Shown: piece after piece, positions 16,040 through 63,970 of the stretch
Layout: each line of letters starts with the position of its first letter
Position numbering within the stretch: the first letter of the stretch is position 1
Source: Oscillospiraceae bacterium
Lineage (GTDB): Bacteria > Bacillota > Clostridia > Oscillospirales > Oscillospiraceae
Direction: 5' to 3'
DNA: 64,000 bases
NCBI GenBank assembly: GCA_016282135.1
Contig: JAEEKA010000117.1
Location: forward strand, 1,611-65,610
Translations under genes and position numbers: made by a program
Notes under the pieces: model-generated
What the model saw: the letters and a program-made list of their open reading frames with translations, nothing else
Databases searched by the model: none
Told to the model about the DNA's origin: nothing

Positions 16040-16044
16040 AAAAA

Positions 16045-16143
16045 CACTCTTCGGGGAGCCGGACCCATCCGGCTGAGACTGAGCGAAAACGGCGCTCTCA
16101 CCCGTGAACCTGATACGGATCATGCCGTCGTAGGAAAAGGGTG
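16045..16143 (+). promoter_or_regulatory. TPP (THI-box) riboswitch aptamer
   Basis: Contains the conserved GGGGAGCC...GGCTGAGA...ACCCGTGAACCTGATACGGATCATGCCGTCGTAGGAA core. The P1 helix pairs cactctt with aagggtg. The downstream gene is a thiamine transporter. Confidence 0.85.
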
Positions 16144-16159
16144 CTTCTCCTCTGATTTG

Positions 16160-34088: not shown

Positions 34089-34123
34089 CAATTTTACATT
34101 TTTCATTCTGCATTCTTCGTTCA
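34089..34123. repeat. Degenerate period-7 array (NCATTYT, ~5 units), intergenic
   Basis: CATT recurs at 34097, 34104 and 34111, with related units on either side. Visibly AT-rich relative to its surroundings. Confidence 0.5.
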
Positions 34124-48791: not shown

Positions 48792-48820
48792 TTGACAAGC
48801 GGGGAGAGAGTTGATATAAT
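48792..48820 (+). promoter_or_regulatory. Promoter of the cobalamin-riboswitch unit
   Basis: TTGACA, a 17-nt spacer, then TATAAT. Confidence 0.6.
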
Positions 48821-48826
48821 GTGGAC

Positions 48827-49015
48827 TGCAAAGACGGGCGTGCCCAGCACTTAATCAGGAAGCAGGTCCAACCCCTGCGCCAGACCGTGGCCGTAGATGG
48901 CATTTTTGACCGGACTTACCGCTTACCGCAAAGCGGGAACAGACCATTGGGACAGCCCCGAGAAGGTCGCCCGGTCCGCCATGAGCCGGAAGACTGACCC
49001 GCGCGATGCCGCCGC
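48827..49015 (+). promoter_or_regulatory. Cobalamin riboswitch (probable)
   Basis: Core AGGAAGCAGGTCCAACCCCTGCGCCAGACCGTGGCCGTAG matches the GGGAAGC.GGTG.AA..CC.GCGC...CCGCCACTGTA consensus pattern. B12-box-like ATGAGCCGGAAGACTGACC at about 48981-48999. The downstream genes are of B12-uptake type. Confidence 0.65.
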
Positions 49016-49141
49016 CGCGAGCTCCGGGGCGGCCCCAGAGCCCCGTGCAGACCGGGTTCTCGGCCGCAGGGAGGGTATTTCGCCTCCCCCAGGACGGCAG
49101 AGCCTTTGCGAAACGAAAAATGAAAAAGGAGATACTTACAC

Positions 49142-50179: not shown

Positions 50180-50209
50180 CAGCCCGCAGAGCGCATGCTC
50201 TGCGGGCTG
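50180..50209 (+). terminator. Hairpin terminator after the ECF S-component gene
   Basis: 13-bp stem CAGCCCGCAGAGC-gcat-GCTCTGCGGGCTG. The following T tract is weak. Confidence 0.55.
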
Positions 50210-50450
50210 AAACGTTTCAAGGCTGAAAATTGAGAATAAAAAGTGGATAGTTGTGGGATCGTTCCAATTGCCATTGGAAGGGACAGTGGAGGATTTCAGG
50301 AAGATGCTCGTTTGTTGGCGCAGACGCTTGCCTGATCGCGTGAAAAAGGCTGTATCGGATAATTTGGTTCTGTTTTTCAAGTGTCATTTTGAAAAACTCG
50401 CTGTTTTCAATTCTCAATTCTCAATTCGCCCCGCTTTGCGGGCTGAAACG
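50201..50450. repeat. AT-rich 236-bp island bounded by a perfect 14-bp direct repeat (TGCGGGCTGAAACG), with GAGAATT-type heptamer ends
   Basis: Direct repeats at 50201-50214 and 50437-50450. AATTGAGAAT sits near the left end. Three TCAATTC units at 50407-50427 near the right end are in inverted orientation to the left-end motif. Confidence 0.6.
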
Positions 50451-61523: not shown

Positions 61524-61573
61524 AGCTTATCCTCAAAGAATCGTGTAGCGCGGGCAATCTGCCCGCTTTGCGA

Positions 61574-62461
61574 CTAAACCTCAAAAAAGCTCTTGATCGT
61601 GGTGAGTTCCCCGTGGTTGACGGCGCAGAGGCCCAGGAAGTCCCCGGCGGGGCCGTAGACCCGATACTCGCCGTCGGCCAGCTTGCCGGTGCGCAGGCTT
61701 GCGCCGTTGCGGAGCTTGTGCTCCCCCGCCTCGTTGACGGTACAGCGGGGCCGGTCGGCAAAGAGACTGTCCACCGGCAGCAGGAAGCGCGCCGGATCGG
61801 GGTCAGCCAGAATCTCATCCAGCGTGTGGGCCTGCTCGATCCCGTAGCGCCCGGCCCGGGTCCGCCGCAGACCCGCCATGCAGCCCCCGCAGCCCAGGGC
61901 CGCGCCAATGTCGTGGCAGAGGGTCCGAACGTAGGTGCCCTTGGAGCAGTGGACGCGCAGGGCAAATTGAGAATTGAGAATTGAGAATTGAGAATTATCC
62001 CGATCAAGAAGCGTCAGCTCGTGGATCACCACCGTCCGCGCCTCCCGCTCCACCTCCTGCCCCTTCCGGGCCAGGGCGTAGAGCTTCTGCCCGTTGACCT
62101 TCACGGCGGAATACATGGGGGGAATCTGTTGAATCGGCCCCCGGAACCGGGCCAGGACTGCCTCAAATTGCTCTGATGTTATGTCAACCGGACGCTCCTC
62201 CAGGGTGCGTCCGGTGGTGTCCTGGGTGTCCGTGACCAGGCCCAGGCGCAGAACGGCCTCATAGACCTTGTCGGCGTGCTCAAAGAAGGGCACCGCCCGT
62301 GTGGCCCGGCCCAGGAAGATGGGCAGAACGCCGGTGGCCATGGGGTCCAGGGTGCCGCCGTGGCCCACCCGTTTTTCGTGAAAGACGCCCCGGAGCTTGG
62401 CCGCCACGTCCTGGGAGGTCCAGCCCGCGGGCTTGTCTACGATCAATATTCCGTTTGGCAT
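61574..62461 (-). CDS. truB: tRNA pseudouridine(55) synthase TruB
   Basis: MPNGILIVDKPAGWTSQDVAAKLR...GHGGTLDPMATGVLPI...CSKGTYVRTL. Start at 62461; the ORF-track extension upstream is spurious. Confidence 0.95.
   Translation of the reverse strand: MPNGILIVDKPAGWTSQDVAAKLRGVFHEKRVGHGGTLDPMATGVLPIFLGRATRAVPFFEHADKVYEAVLRLGLVTDTQDTTGRTLEERPVDITSEQFEAVLARFRGPIQQIPPMYSAVKVNGQKLYALARKGQEVEREARTVVIHELTLLDRDNSQFSILNSQFALRVHCSKGTYVRTLCHDIGAALGCGGCMAGLRRTRAGRYGIEQAHTLDEILADPDPARFLLPVDSLFADRPRCTVNEAGEHKLRNGASLRTGKLADGEYRVYGPAGDFLGLCAVNHGELTTIKSFFEV
61965..61996. repeat. Tandem heptamer array AATTGAG x 4.6, in frame inside truB
   Basis: Units start at 61965, 61972, 61979 and 61986, plus a partial unit. 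It encodes ...DNSQFSILNSQFA... in the loop preceding LRVHCSKGTY. Confidence 0.95.
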
Positions 62462-62531: not shown

Positions 62532-63506
62532 CTACAGCTTGATGACTTCTCCAATTGCCCGCAGGATGGCCGCTCGGGCGGCGGGAATGCCGCCCTCCAC
62601 CGAGGCGCCGGCGGCGCCGGGATGTCCGCCGCCCCCCAGCTTTGCGCAGATGGCCGCGGCGTTGAAGGCAGGGCCGCAGCGCAGGGAAATTTTTCCCTTG
62701 CCGCCCTCTACCTCCCGGAGCATCACGGCCAGCTCCACGCCCTCCACGGCCCGGCCGAAGCCGGAAATGTCGTCGATGTCGTCCTCGGTCAGCTTCAGCT
62801 CCTCCATCAGAGCCTGGGGGATGGCGGAAACCGCCACCCGGCCTCCGGCAAAGAATTCCATGTGCTCCACCAGCCAGGCCTCCAGGGCCAGCCGGGGACG
62901 GCGCTTGATCTCAAAGAAGGCCCGGTTGATGGGGAAGATTTCCGCGCCCGCCTCCACGCAGGCGGCGGCGCAGCGGAAGGTGTTGGCGGTGACGTTGGAG
63001 TAGCGGAAGCAGCCCGTGTCCGTGGAAATCGCCACGTAGAGGGCCTCGCCCATCTCCTTTGTCATGGCCGTGCCCAGCAGGGGCAGGAGCTCCGCAATGA
63101 TCTCCCCGCAGGCTGCTCTGGTTTCGTCGGTGTGAGTCCGGACGGCGAAGCCGTCGTTGGTCCCGTGGTGATCGATGGCCAGCTCTACCGCCGCGTCCTC
63201 CATCCCAAAGGGCAGCAGTCCCCGGGAGGCAACGTCGCAGGAAATGATACAATACTCCTCTGATCTCTGATCCTTGATCCCTGATCCCTGGATGGCCGTC
63301 AGGCCGTCCAAGCAGGGCGCGAAGCGGGGGGTGAACTGGGGGTTGGCATAGAGCCAGGCTGTCTTGCCGATGGCCCGGAGGGCCCGGCAGAGGGCTGCAC
63401 AGGAGCCCACCGTGTCCCCGTCGGGACGGCGGTGGGAGAGAATCAGATAGTTGTCATGCTCCAGCAGGAAGGCGGCTGCCTCCTGCAGGGAAAACCGCTC
63501 GTTCAT
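62532..63506 (-). CDS. nrnA: DHH/DHHA1 phosphoesterase NrnA (oligoribonuclease / pAp phosphatase)
   Basis: ...LILSHRRPDGDTVGS...IDHHGTN...GGGHPGAAG motifs. Position in the rbfA-truB operon. Confidence 0.9.
   Translation of the reverse strand: MNERFSLQEAAAFLLEHDNYLILSHRRPDGDTVGSCAALCRALRAIGKTAWLYANPQFTPRFAPCLDGLTAIQGSGIKDQRSEEYCIISCDVASRGLLPFGMEDAAVELAIDHHGTNDGFAVRTHTDETRAACGEIIAELLPLLGTAMTKEMGEALYVAISTDTGCFRYSNVTANTFRCAAACVEAGAEIFPINRAFFEIKRRPRLALEAWLVEHMEFFAGGRVAVSAIPQALMEELKLTEDDIDDISGFGRAVEGVELAVMLREVEGGKGKISLRCGPAFNAAAICAKLGGGGHPGAAGASVEGGIPAARAAILRAIGEVIKL
63261..63288. repeat. Tandem heptamer array TGATCYC x 4 (minus-sense GGATCAG-like), in frame inside nrnA
   Basis: TGATC recurs at 63261, 63268, 63275 and 63282. 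It encodes ...IQGSGIKDQRSEE.... Confidence 0.9.
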
Positions 63507-63916: not shown

Positions 63917-63942
63917 CGTGCATCCTCCTTTCTGATGCAAGG

Positions 63943-63970
63943 GAATAGGGAAGAGTGAATAGTGAAGAGT
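63943..63970. repeat. Period-7 array GAATAGG/GAAGAGT/GAATAGT/GAAGAGT in the rbfA leader
   Basis: Four consecutive heptamers (two 14-mers) read directly. Followed by the hairpin TTCAAATC-acc-GATTTGAA at the window edge. Confidence 0.8.

What the first reader, a model, noticed from the sequence alone, without database searches (positions are those of the whole stretch)
61965..61996. Perfect AT-rich heptamer array (AATTGAG x 4.6) in frame inside the essential-type gene truB
Seen in sequence: 32 nt of exact period-7 repeat in an otherwise GC-rich, non-repetitive conserved gene. It encodes DNSQFSILNSQFA in the variable loop just before the conserved LRVHCSKGTYVR block. A unit length of 7 is not a multiple of 3, so gain or loss of a single unit would frameshift truB.

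The reverse complement of the same heptamer (TCAATTC x 3) occurs at 50407-50427, and a single AATTGAGAAT occurs at 50227-50236, at the ends of an intergenic island.

Inference, three possibilities:
1. A footprint or insertion of a small repeat element that tolerates coding loops.
2. A slippage-prone contingency tract.
3. A nucleic-acid-level binding array.

I know of no described heptamer family in Clostridia.
Basis: seen in the sequence. Interest (0 to 1): 0.6.

Follow-up and report, generated by a model that had tools for sequence, protein, structure and literature searches.

The report
Translated heptamer repeat in TruB loop
The 32-base run of a 7-base repeat inside the tRNA-modifying gene truB is one translated copy of a repeat family scattered about 90 times through this Oscillospiraceae genome. 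It adds seven apparently harmless residues to a surface hairpin that related species have filled with other repeats, so it is a new example of a known but unexplained kind of bacterial repeat.

Summary
Window 61965-61996 is a perfect AATT(GAGAATT)4 tract, in frame in minus-strand truB, and encodes NSQFSILNSQF.

- **Not isolated.** The genome holds about 90 GAGAATT arrays. Their modal length is 32-34 nt, and 62 of 90 are followed by one of two hairpin types. More than ten other heptamer families are present.
- **Period 7 is over-represented.** 188 strong period-7 arrays compare with 7-15 for periods 8, 10 and 11.
- **Only one strand can be coding.** The GAGAATT strand has TGA in all three frames. 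The AATTCTC strand is open in all three.
- **Effect on the protein.** Against E. coli TruB the tract is a clean 7-residue insertion at a beta-hairpin tip. The model has low confidence there and the fold is otherwise intact.
- **The hairpin is a hot spot.** Basal species of the genus have no insert. All others carry in-frame inserts of +21 to +342 nt, built from heptamer arrays and GTAG-headed hairpins.
- **Stability.** About 30 listed cluster-member sequences keep the same loop length. One relative has exactly three units fewer. This argues against a contingency switch.

The scan has met in-frame repeats in truB and heptamer arrays on other DNA before. Verdict: a new member of a known kind (heptamer LSSR/STRR arrays; RPE-like in-frame inserts). 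The repeat's own function is unknown and it is probably neutral.

The parts
61965..61996 (-). Perfect heptamer array, 32 nt. It reads AATT(GAGAATT)4 on the + strand and AATTCTC units on the coding (-) strand, and encodes NSQFSILNSQF.
   Evidence: TRF 4.6 copies, 100% matches. It has the same length and phase as the modal class of the dispersed family. There is no adjacent hairpin, so it is a solo module.
61961..62014 (-). Loop-coding segment of truB (TLLDRD-NSQFSILNSQF-A), the tip of a beta-hairpin. It is 54 nt here and 33 nt in insert-free relatives.
   Evidence: DNA of 17 relatives. One search shows a clean 7-residue gap against E. coli TruB 1K8W/1R3F, between HEGN and ELELEIHCSKG. One search places model strands at 142-152 and 165-172, with pLDDT below 50 at residues 158-160.
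61574..62461 (-). truB, the tRNA pseudouridine-55 synthase gene. It encodes 295 aa, is intact, and is under purifying selection.
   Evidence: ORF. (E 1.5e-60 to E. coli TruB). (PF01509 and PF16198 on homologues). (model against 1K8W_A: TM 0.88, rmsd 2.6). (dN/dS 0.08-0.29 outside the loop).
50406..50429 (-). Second GAGAATT-family array in the window: 3 units on the minus strand, intergenic.
50372..50397 (-). Hairpin GTTTTTCAA..TTGAAAAAC, 11 nt 3' of that array. This is the usual array-plus-hairpin architecture of the family.
   Evidence: 62 of 90 arrays have such a hairpin within 70 nt 3', against 8 of 90 on the 5' side; the module recurs at 80-84% identity in relatives.
63256..63290 (-). Heptamer array of another family (GGATCAG on the coding strand), in frame in the DHH/DHHA1 (NrnA-like) gene next to truB. 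It encodes GSGIKDQRSE.
   Evidence: The same kind of array is present in the DHH gene of L157 and absent from L155.

Best explanation
The tract is a translated, tolerated copy of the genome's own dispersed heptamer-array module.

**The family.** In this Oscillospiraceae genus, short arrays of 7-nt units fill intergenic DNA. GAGAATT is the commonest unit, and its arrays are typically 32-34 nt. They usually sit next to a small hairpin, and sometimes form inverted arms around a hairpin or around a small four-helix-bundle (23S_rRNA_IVP) gene.

**Why this copy survives.** Now and then a module, or a GTAG-headed hairpin repeat, becomes fixed inside a gene. That can happen only in the orientation without stop codons, only in multiples of three bases, and only where the protein tolerates extra residues. 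In truB the tolerant place is the tip of the beta-hairpin that leads into the HCSKGTY active-site motif. Here the array adds a net 21 nt (7 residues), and its last QF replaces the usual D-W/F/Y of the returning strand.

**Function and turnover.** The array has no function of its own in truB. It is kept because removing it imprecisely would break the gene. Once the hairpin tip held repeat DNA, it became a site of continued turnover. Modules have been swapped, nested, duplicated or trimmed by three units in different lineages, presumably by recombination with dispersed copies and by slippage.

**Shown:** family membership, position in the protein, stability, and turnover among relatives.

**Inferred:** neutrality, the mechanism of arrival, and the mechanism of exchange.
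For: **Family membership**
- The genome has 90 arrays of at least 3 GAGAATT units.
- Run lengths are 63, 33, 43 and 13 arrays for 2, 3, 4 and 5 units. The modal total length is 32-34 nt, and the truB copy is 32 nt in the same phase.
- 62 of 90 arrays have a perfect hairpin of at least 8 bp within 70 nt 3', against 8 of 90 on the 5' side.
- Period 7 is over-represented: 188 arrays with score at least 40, against 7, 12 and 15 for periods 8, 10 and 11. More than 10 unit families are present.
- Arrays of the unit occur in 18 of 28 genomes of the genus. A reversed-pattern control gives 0 in every genome.

**Frame filter**
- The GAGAATT strand carries TGA in all three frames, and the AATTCTC strand is open in all three (read directly from the sequence).
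- 11% of period-7 arrays lie in DNA called as coding, although 86% of the genome is coding.

**Position in the protein**
- There is a 7-residue gap against E. coli TruB.
- In the AF2 model (mean pLDDT 88.8) the insert lies between strands 142-152 and 165-172, with pLDDT below 50 at 158-160.
- The fold matches 1K8W with TM 0.88.
- dN/dS outside the loop is 0.08-0.29.

**Hot spot**
- Basal species G011, G013, G014 and G018 have the 45-nt baseline.
- Every other species sampled carries an in-frame insert: CAGGCAT arrays plus an inverted GTAG hairpin, perfect palindromes, or hairpin doublets.
- In 118 metagenomic homologue clusters the loop spans 16-132 aa. It includes 2x and 3x tandem 126-nt composite modules in proteins whose best local alignment to this TruB is 96% identical but covers only about half the query.
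- Loop flanks are 90-100% identical between genomes whose loops differ completely: L005 against L017, and L001 against L003.

**Generality**
- In-frame arrays also lie in LarC, DprA, MutL, a MoaC-MOSC linker, an ABC exporter linker, a TsaD-family protein, a second pseudouridine synthase and a P-type ATPase.
Against: - The arrival of the module was not observed, and no target-site duplication or element boundary can be defined.
- A relative (P0062/L155) has only 1.7 units in a loop of baseline length. In-situ expansion from a short seed therefore cannot be separated from insertion followed by contraction.
- AATTCTC-type loops are not monophyletic on the truB tree (AU p = 1.7e-43). However, the gene is a recombinant mosaic, so the history is unresolved.
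- Neutrality is inferred, not measured. The array differs at only 2-3 of 33 nt between species with dS 0.38-0.46. By my rough estimate that is somewhat fewer changes than expected, and I did not test whether the difference is significant.
- No expression, proteomic or read-level data were available.
Confidence: 0.77

Rival explanations
1. The array is a home-grown microsatellite. It arose in place from a short AATTCTCAATTC seed in the loop and expanded by 21 nt through polymerase slippage, independently of the dispersed family.
For: - P0062/L155 carries exactly 1.7 units in a loop of baseline length, collinear with insert-free loops.
- Heptamers are reported to be the unit size most prone to slippage (Mrazek 2007, as summarised in PMC4679880 and PMC4692102).
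Against: - An AT-rich 12-mer seed in a GC-rich loop that happens to equal the genome's commonest repeat unit is an unlikely coincidence.
- The truB tract has the modal 32-nt length and phase of the dispersed modules.
- Sister species hold other dispersed modules at the same spot.
- Relatives of P0062 that share its flank (YELTCV..) carry the full array, which fits contraction at least as well as expansion.
Confidence: 0.1
2. The tract is a contingency (phase-variation) locus. Gain or loss of one unit switches truB off and on within the population.
For: - A unit of 7 is not a multiple of 3.
- The tract is perfect.
- In G003 the assembly breaks inside the array.
Against: - The roughly 30 listed members of five 90%-identity clusters all keep the 25-aa loop.
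- The tract has the same length in G000, G008 and G016.
- It has only 4.6 units.
- It lies in a housekeeping tRNA-modification gene, not a surface or restriction gene.
- Contig breaks are expected at any dispersed repeat.
Confidence: 0.03
3. The tract is a nucleic-acid binding array. A protein recognises tandem GAGAATT units on DNA, like the omega repressor on heptads, or GAG triplets spaced 7 nt apart on RNA, like HutP. The truB copy would then be a functional site, for example for pausing or for regulating the downstream ribF.
For: - The unit is conserved across about 90 loci and arrays have a narrow length range.
- The exact (GAGAATT)4 recurs in at least 120 contigs from many phyla.
- The precedents of heptad operators and 7-nt-spaced triplets come from memory and were not tested.
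Against: - The family shows no strand bias relative to transcription, 27:29.
- Period-7 arrays as a whole are depleted in divergent promoter spacers: 9% of arrays against 24% of intergenic bp.
- Many other unit sequences behave in the same way.
- The truB array decays by point changes in relatives without loss of the gene.
- There is no Rfam match.
Confidence: 0.05
4. The insertion is adaptive. The extra NSQFSILNSQF hairpin extension gives TruB a new contact, with RNA or with a partner protein, and is kept by selection on the peptide.
For: - The loop is kept at 25 aa in about 20 homologue clusters, and the C-terminal LNSQF is the best-conserved part.
- The array diverges slightly more slowly than my rough expectation.
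Against: - Sister species replace it with unrelated peptides of 11 to 114 extra residues, or have none.
- The model has low confidence in the insert.
- The conserved QF simply occupies the position of the ancestral D-W/F/Y strand residues.
Confidence: 0.04
5. The tract is an assembly or binning artefact of a metagenome-assembled genome.
For: The genome is a draft of 120 contigs, 85.6% complete with 4.4% contamination.
Against: The same tract sits at the same codon in independent assemblies from several species and many samples.
Confidence: 0.01

Closest known systems
Heptanucleotide long simple sequence repeats and STRR-type arrays. Sources: Mrazek et al. 2007 as summarised in PMC4679880 and PMC4692102; cyanobacterial STRR; GGGAATC in Xanthomonas; GGGGA(C/T)T in Nostoc; TAACTGA in Beggiatoaceae.
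   Same: - Tandem 7-nt units of one or a few sequences recur at many, mostly intergenic, loci.
- They often occur as inverted pairs.
- Heptamers are over-represented relative to other unit sizes.
- One strand is full of stop codons and the other is open, so only 'reverse' copies occur inside ORFs. PMC4679880 describes exactly this for TAACTGA.
- The function is unknown.
   Different: - The lineage is different (Oscillospiraceae). I found no paper reporting such arrays there.
- Arrays here are short and of narrow length (modal 32-34 nt), and are coupled to two specific hairpin types.
- This copy lies deep inside a conserved enzyme domain rather than at a protein end.
Rickettsia palindromic elements and intragenic GTAG/CGTC REPs (Di Nocera et al. 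2013, PMC3733652).
   Same: - A dispersed selfish-looking repeat is fixed in frame inside a housekeeping gene and read through as an extra surface peptide.
- Several genes of the same genome are affected.
- In sister species the truB loop holds true GTAG-headed hairpins and hairpin doublets.
   Different: The copy in this window is a direct tandem array without dyad symmetry and without a GTAG or CGTC tag. It is not a member of those families and resembles them only in behaviour.
ORF-bearing intervening-sequence cassettes: a 23S_rRNA_IVP four-helix-bundle gene (PF05635) between inverted arms. The link to heptamer arms comes from earlier notes of this scan.
   Same: In this genome two PF05635 genes (C59 and C109) are flanked by inverted 7- or 8-mer arrays. 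These sit next to hairpins of the same type as those beside GAGAATT arrays.
   Different: - The truB tract is a solo array with no hairpin, no partner arm and no gene.
- Counts of PF05635 genes and GAGAATT arrays do not track each other across the genus.
Phase-variable simple sequence repeats (contingency loci).
   Same: It is a perfect tandem repeat inside an ORF whose unit is not a multiple of three.
   Different: - No copy-number heterogeneity was seen among about 30 listed cluster-member sequences.
- The gene is a housekeeping one.
- The only variant seen preserves the frame (three units fewer).

Membership tests
Dispersed heptamer arrays (LSSR/STRR type) | Tandem repeat of a 7-nt unit that is longer than chance allows | tested here: met
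   TRF gives 4.6 copies at 100% matches. 0 of 100 shuffles reach the observed count.
Dispersed heptamer arrays (LSSR/STRR type) | The same unit recurs as arrays at many loci of the genome | tested here: met
   The genome has 90 arrays of at least 3 units, and 95 TRF arrays of this unit class.
Dispersed heptamer arrays (LSSR/STRR type) | Period 7 is over-represented relative to other unit lengths that are not multiples of 3 | tested here: met
   There are 358 period-7 arrays, 188 of them strong. Periods 8, 10 and 11 give 80, 109 and 67 arrays, of which 7, 12 and 15 are strong.
Dispersed heptamer arrays (LSSR/STRR type) | Predominantly intergenic location | tested here: met
   182 of 204 arrays lie outside crude gene calls, although 86% of the genome is coding. 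The truB copy is the exception.
Dispersed heptamer arrays (LSSR/STRR type) | Copy number varies between strains or relatives | tested here: inconclusive
   The number is constant within 90% clusters. One relative has three units fewer. Reads could not be examined.
Rickettsia palindromic elements / intragenic REPs | Multi-copy dispersed element fixed in frame in a conserved gene and located in a surface loop | tested here: met
Rickettsia palindromic elements / intragenic REPs | Palindromic (hairpin-forming) sequence; for REPs, a GTAG or CGTC tag | tested here: not met
   The tract consists of direct repeats only, with no dyad symmetry and no tag. The feature is met by the inserts of relatives L003, L006, L009 and L015-L017.
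Contingency (phase-variable) SSR locus | Population heterogeneity in unit number that shifts the frame | tested here: not met
   There are no length variants among the roughly 30 listed cluster members. Read-level testing was not possible.
Contingency (phase-variable) SSR locus | Sits in a surface, virulence or restriction-modification gene or in its promoter | tested here: not met
   The gene is truB, in the rbfA-DHH-truB-ribF context.
TruB (tRNA pseudouridine-55 synthase), the host gene | TruB_N domain, catalytic Asp in the GTLDP motif, HCSKGTY motif and TruB fold | tested here: met
   Homologues carry PF01509 and PF16198. D39 and the motifs are invariant in alignment A1. TM is 0.88 to 1K8W_A.
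Heptad operator arrays bound by ribbon-helix-helix proteins (omega type) | Heptad arrays in promoter regions, bound cooperatively by a dedicated repressor | not testable with these tools
   Binding cannot be tested here. The position inside an ORF, the lack of strand bias and the depletion in divergent spacers argue against this reading.

The most novel reading that the evidence does not exclude
The TruB hairpin tip may be a preferred landing or exchange site for dispersed repeats, rather than merely a tolerant one.

- In this genus it has taken up at least ten different cassette types.
- Closely related genomes with 90-100% identical flanks carry unrelated loops.
- Earlier notes of this scan report in-frame repeats in truB in at least eight other, distant lineages.

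If the roughly 32-nt heptamer modules and hairpins are actively targeted or copied into such sites, this would be a general route by which bacteria grow and swap protein loops. One possible route is a system linked to the four-helix-bundle cassettes. Another is repeat-homology-guided gene conversion.
Probability: 0.15. Interest if true: 0.6.

Novelty: new member of a known kind. Interest (0 to 1): 0.35.

Why it matters
The tract itself is probably harmless. It matters in three ways.

1. **The repeats reach inside an enzyme domain.** The unexplained heptamer repeats known from cyanobacteria, Xanthomonas and Beggiatoaceae also populate a gut or rumen Oscillospiraceae genus. There they enter conserved enzymes, filtered only by strand, frame and structural tolerance.

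2. **A dense natural series.** The truB hairpin offers 118 homologue clusters with loops of 16-132 residues. This series can be used to study how dispersed repeats create, swap and duplicate protein loops.

3. **A practical warning.** Such tracts break assemblies and inflate apparent protein divergence in metagenome-assembled genomes.

Tried and rejected
- **Empty-site comparison for the intergenic island at 50201-50450.** The upstream gene is syntenic in five relatives, but the downstream SLH gene is not. No empty site could be defined.
- **Rfam.** Nothing matched four element-rich loci at E up to 0.1. The window gave only a TPP and a cobalamin riboswitch.
- **Single origin of the AATTCTC loop on a truB tree.** Monophyly is rejected. 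I do not read this as independent gains, because truB is a recombinant mosaic. L001 is 93% identical to L005 in the N-terminal part and 67% in the C-terminal part.
- **Extra nucleotide conservation of the array.** It shows 2-3 differences in 33 nt, against the roughly 4-6 I would expect from dS and dN. The excess is suggestive at most and I did not test it formally, so I dropped it as evidence.
- **Link between GAGAATT abundance and the number of PF05635 genes across the genus.** There is no simple relation. For example, G036 has 8 genes and 0 arrays, and G016 has 0 genes and 10 arrays.
- **HutP/TRAP-like RNA reading of GAG triplets.** Rejected for the family because the orientation relative to transcription is 27:29.
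- **Cross-phylum element.** The exact (GAGAATT)4 occurs in many phyla, but the flanks share nothing. This is not one mobile element spreading by transfer. I could not run a control unit, so I make no claim that GAGAATT is a favoured unit.
Full report
**Observation.** Window 61965-61996 is a perfect 32-nt tract, AATT(GAGAATT)4 on the plus strand. TRF reports 4.6 copies at 100% matches, score 64. The doubled unit, with up to two mismatches, occurs five times in the window. Shuffles give a mean of 0.29, and 0 of 100 reach five. The tract lies in the minus-strand truB ORF, 61574-62461. It is read as AATTCTC units and encodes NSQFSILNSQF just before LRVHCSKGTYVR. The second array at 50407-50427 is real. 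The single AATTGAGAAT is at 50228-50237, one base off the stated position.

**The tract belongs to a genome-wide family.** The window is G000:C19:1611-65610, in a draft genome of 2.51 Mb, 120 contigs and 58.6% G+C.
- The genome holds 90 arrays of at least three GAGAATT units, allowing up to one mismatch per unit.
- Run lengths are not geometric: 63, 33, 43 and 13 arrays have 2, 3, 4 and 5 units. Total length peaks at 32-34 nt. The truB copy, at 32 nt, falls in that class and has the same phase.
- 62 of 90 arrays are followed within 70 nt by a perfect hairpin of at least 8 bp, mostly one of two types (GTTTTGCAGAT.. or GTTTTCAAAT..). Only 8 of 90 have such a hairpin on the other side. Some elements read array-hairpin-inverted array.
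- The truB copy is a solo array with no hairpin.
- Whole-genome TRF shows that period 7 is special. There are 358 arrays, 188 with score at least 40. Periods 8, 10 and 11 give 80, 109 and 67 arrays, of which 7, 12 and 15 are strong.
- Many unit families are present: GAGAATT 95, GGATCAG 23, GTAAGAA 22, CAGAGTT 19, AGGCAAT 18 and others.
- The genome also has 208 GTAG-headed GC-rich hairpins, against 12-26 for control tetranucleotide heads. It has one Y1-transposase-family gene.
- It has four 23S_rRNA_IVP four-helix-bundle genes. Two of them sit between inverted 7- or 8-mer arrays, next to hairpins of the same type as those beside GAGAATT arrays.
- No Rfam family matches these elements.

**Why this copy can sit in a gene.** The GAGAATT strand contains TGA in all three frames. 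The AATTCTC strand is open in all three and always gives the cyclic peptide NSQFSIL; both points are read directly from the sequence.
- A crude codon-usage gene call gives 2111 genes covering 86% of the genome.
- Of 204 strong period-7 arrays, 182 are intergenic and 22 fall inside called genes. About a dozen of those are truly internal.
- Of the GAGAATT family, truB is the only clear internal case. Two others lie 13-30 nt from crude start calls.
- The family has no orientation bias relative to transcription (27:29). Period-7 arrays overall are depleted in divergent spacers: 9% of arrays against 24% of intergenic bases.
- Other in-frame arrays lie in LarC, DprA (two arrays), MutL (two), a MoaC-MOSC linker, an ABC exporter linker, a TsaD-family protein, a second pseudouridine synthase and a P-type ATPase. 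They also lie in the DHH gene next to truB, at window 63256-63290.

**Place in the protein.**
- Against E. coli TruB (1K8W, 1R3F) the alignment has one clean 7-residue gap, between ..HEGN and ELELEIHCSKG.
- An AlphaFold2 model built on 46 homologues has mean pLDDT 88.8. It places the insert (about residues 153-164) between strands 142-152 and 165-172, with pLDDT below 50 at 158-160.
- The model superposes on 1K8W_A with TM 0.88 and rmsd 2.6 A.
- By E. coli numbering the site is the turn at residues 163-167. That is the far end of the strand pair running from the thumb loop (124-152) back to the active-site Tyr179. I did not measure its distance from the RNA.
- Outside the loop truB is under purifying selection, with dN/dS 0.08-0.29.

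**The hairpin tip is a hot spot in this genus.**
- In 17 species of the genus the segment is 45 nt in the four basal species (G011, G013, G014, G018), for example LDARGADWKLRIH.
- It is 66 nt with the AATTCTC array in G000, G008 and G016. In G003 the contig breaks inside the array.
- The other species carry different in-frame inserts at the same place:
  - (CAGGCAT)x3 plus an inverted GTAG hairpin in G009 and G010 (+42 nt);
  - a perfect palindrome in G017 (+33 nt);
  - a hairpin doublet in G007 (+51 nt);
  - degenerate inserts in G001 and G015 (+48 nt);
  - composite inserts of +81, +126 and +120 nt in G006, G004 and G005.
- Among the 120 closest metagenomic homologue clusters, the two motifs that bound the loop are found in 118. 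Some clusters are named Oscillospiraceae bacterium.
  - Their loops range from 16 to 132 residues.
  - About 20 clusters carry the AATTCTC type, with point variants such as QSQSSILNSQF.
  - Nine are baseline.
  - Most of the rest translate other heptamer families or GTAG hairpins.
- Two proteins whose best local alignment to this TruB is 96% identical over about half the query carry two and three tandem copies of a 126-nt module. The module is made of (GGATCAR)4.4, (AATGCAG)4.6 and an inverted GTAG hairpin.

**History.**
- On a truB tree built without the loop, the insert-free species are basal and all derived species have inserts. The AATTCTC carriers are not one clade (AU p = 1.7e-43).
- The gene is a mosaic. 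L001 is 93% identical to L005 in the N-terminal 100 codons but 67% in the C-terminal part.
- The immediate flanks are shared between genomes with unrelated loops: L001 and L003 at 90%, and L005 and L017 at 90-100%.
- I read this as an old colonisation of the hairpin tip, followed by cassette turnover and inter-species recombination, not as repeated independent insertion of the same array. The data do not settle the order of events.

**Stability.**
- The roughly 30 member sequences listed for five 90%-identity clusters all keep the 25-residue loop. The exceptions are one 5'-truncated fragment and small differences of 1-2 residues in total length that lie outside the loop.
- The array differs at 2-3 of 33 nt between species with dS 0.38-0.46.
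- One relative (P0062, L155) has GAC-AATTCTCAATTC-GTG. That is 1.7 units, exactly 21 nt shorter. Copy number therefore does change over evolutionary time, but only the frame-preserving three-unit step is seen.
- This argues against a contingency switch.

**Distribution.**
- (GAGAATT)3 with up to one mismatch occurs in 18 of 28 genomes of the genus. G000 has 90 matches, G007 67, G005 50, G032 49, and ten genomes have none. A reversed control gives 0 in every genome of the genus.
- In a sample of 301 genomes of the order, only nine others have any match. The highest counts there are 9 and 5.
- The exact (GAGAATT)4 is nonetheless present in at least 120 contigs from cyanobacteria, Acidobacteriota, Bacteroidota, Desulfobacterota, Cloacimonadota, CPR and others. 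Those copies have unrelated flanks and often an inverted partner array. No control unit could be scanned, so I do not claim this unit is favoured.

**Comparison with what is known.**
- Heptamer repeats are reported as the most abundant long simple sequence repeats in many bacteria, and polymerase slippage is the proposed cause. This is Mrazek et al. 2007 as summarised in PMC4679880 and PMC4692102.
- TAACTGA arrays of Beggiatoaceae show the same strand asymmetry: stops in all frames forward, an open reverse strand, and a few reverse copies inside ORFs (PMC4679880).
- In-frame palindromic repeats are known from Rickettsia and from GTAG/CGTC REPs (PMC3733652).
- The tract here passes the tests for a dispersed heptamer array. 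It fails the palindrome and tag test for RPE/REP membership, although it behaves like them.
- Earlier notes of this scan describe AATTCTC arrays, heptamer arms around four-helix-bundle genes, and in-frame repeats in truB in at least eight other lineages. Those are unchecked leads. The four-helix-bundle layout I did confirm in this genome.

**Verdict.** The best reading is a tolerated, translated copy of a dispersed heptamer module at a permissive hairpin tip (confidence about 0.77). It is a new member of a known kind. The most interesting residue is the extraordinary turnover of repeat cassettes at this one TruB loop.

Noticed in passing
window 63256-63290: A heptamer array of another family (GGATCAG on the coding strand, about 4.4 units) lies in frame in the DHH/DHHA1 (NrnA-like) gene directly upstream of truB. 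A similar array is present in the DHH gene of L157 and absent from L155.
   Followed up: partly
window 61545-61566: A GTAG-headed GC-rich hairpin (GTAG + CGCGGGCA..TGCCCGC) lies in the 50-nt spacer between ribF and truB. Genome-wide there are 208 such GTAG hairpins, against 12-26 for control heads. A Y1_Tnp-family gene is at G000:C8:2589-2921.
   Followed up: partly
L153 (G000:C59:52300-53700) and L154 (G000:C109:1-900): Small 23S_rRNA_IVP four-helix-bundle genes (PF05635) sit between inverted 7- or 8-mer arrays, next to hairpins of the same type that follow GAGAATT arrays. In five relatives (G006, G008, G009, G011, G015) such a gene lies 1.5-1.8 kb upstream of truB.
   Followed up: partly
L156:1951-2330: This TruB's best local alignment to the window protein is 96% identical over about half the query. 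Its loop carries three tandem 126-nt composite modules: a GGATCAR array, an AATGCAG array and an inverted GTAG hairpin. That adds 114 residues in frame. A sister cluster carries two copies.
   Followed up: partly
L001-L017 (truB of the genus): truB itself is a recombinant mosaic between species. The N-terminal and C-terminal halves give conflicting nearest relatives. For example, G000 against G016 is 93% identical in one half and 67% in the other.
   Followed up: partly
L031-L150 (genome-contig hits): The exact (GAGAATT)4 occurs in at least 120 contigs from more than ten phyla. The flanks are unrelated, and there is often an inverted AATTCTC partner 10-60 nt away. No control unit could be scanned.
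   Followed up: partly
G000:C111:5496-5797 and L151/L152: Contigs C111 and C108 are very dense in a composite element of about 140 nt: a GTAG hairpin, a GAGAATT array and two alternative TGCAAAAC hairpins. This includes three tandem copies at C111:5496-5797. The genes between the elements were not examined.
   Followed up: no
window 63940-63970 and 34097-34122: There are further period-7 arrays: AGGGAAT x3.9 near the rbfA start, and CATTCTT x3.7 beside a hairpin at the end of a polymerase gene.
   Followed up: no
window 16042-16153 and 48820-49016: A TPP riboswitch (70 bits) and a cobalamin riboswitch (44 bits), both on the plus strand.
   Followed up: no
window 50224-50279 and 50354-50427: The two ends of the AT-rich island at 50201-50450 each match many places in related genomes at 80-84% identity. 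The island is therefore built from dispersed modules. An empty site could not be found.
   Followed up: partly
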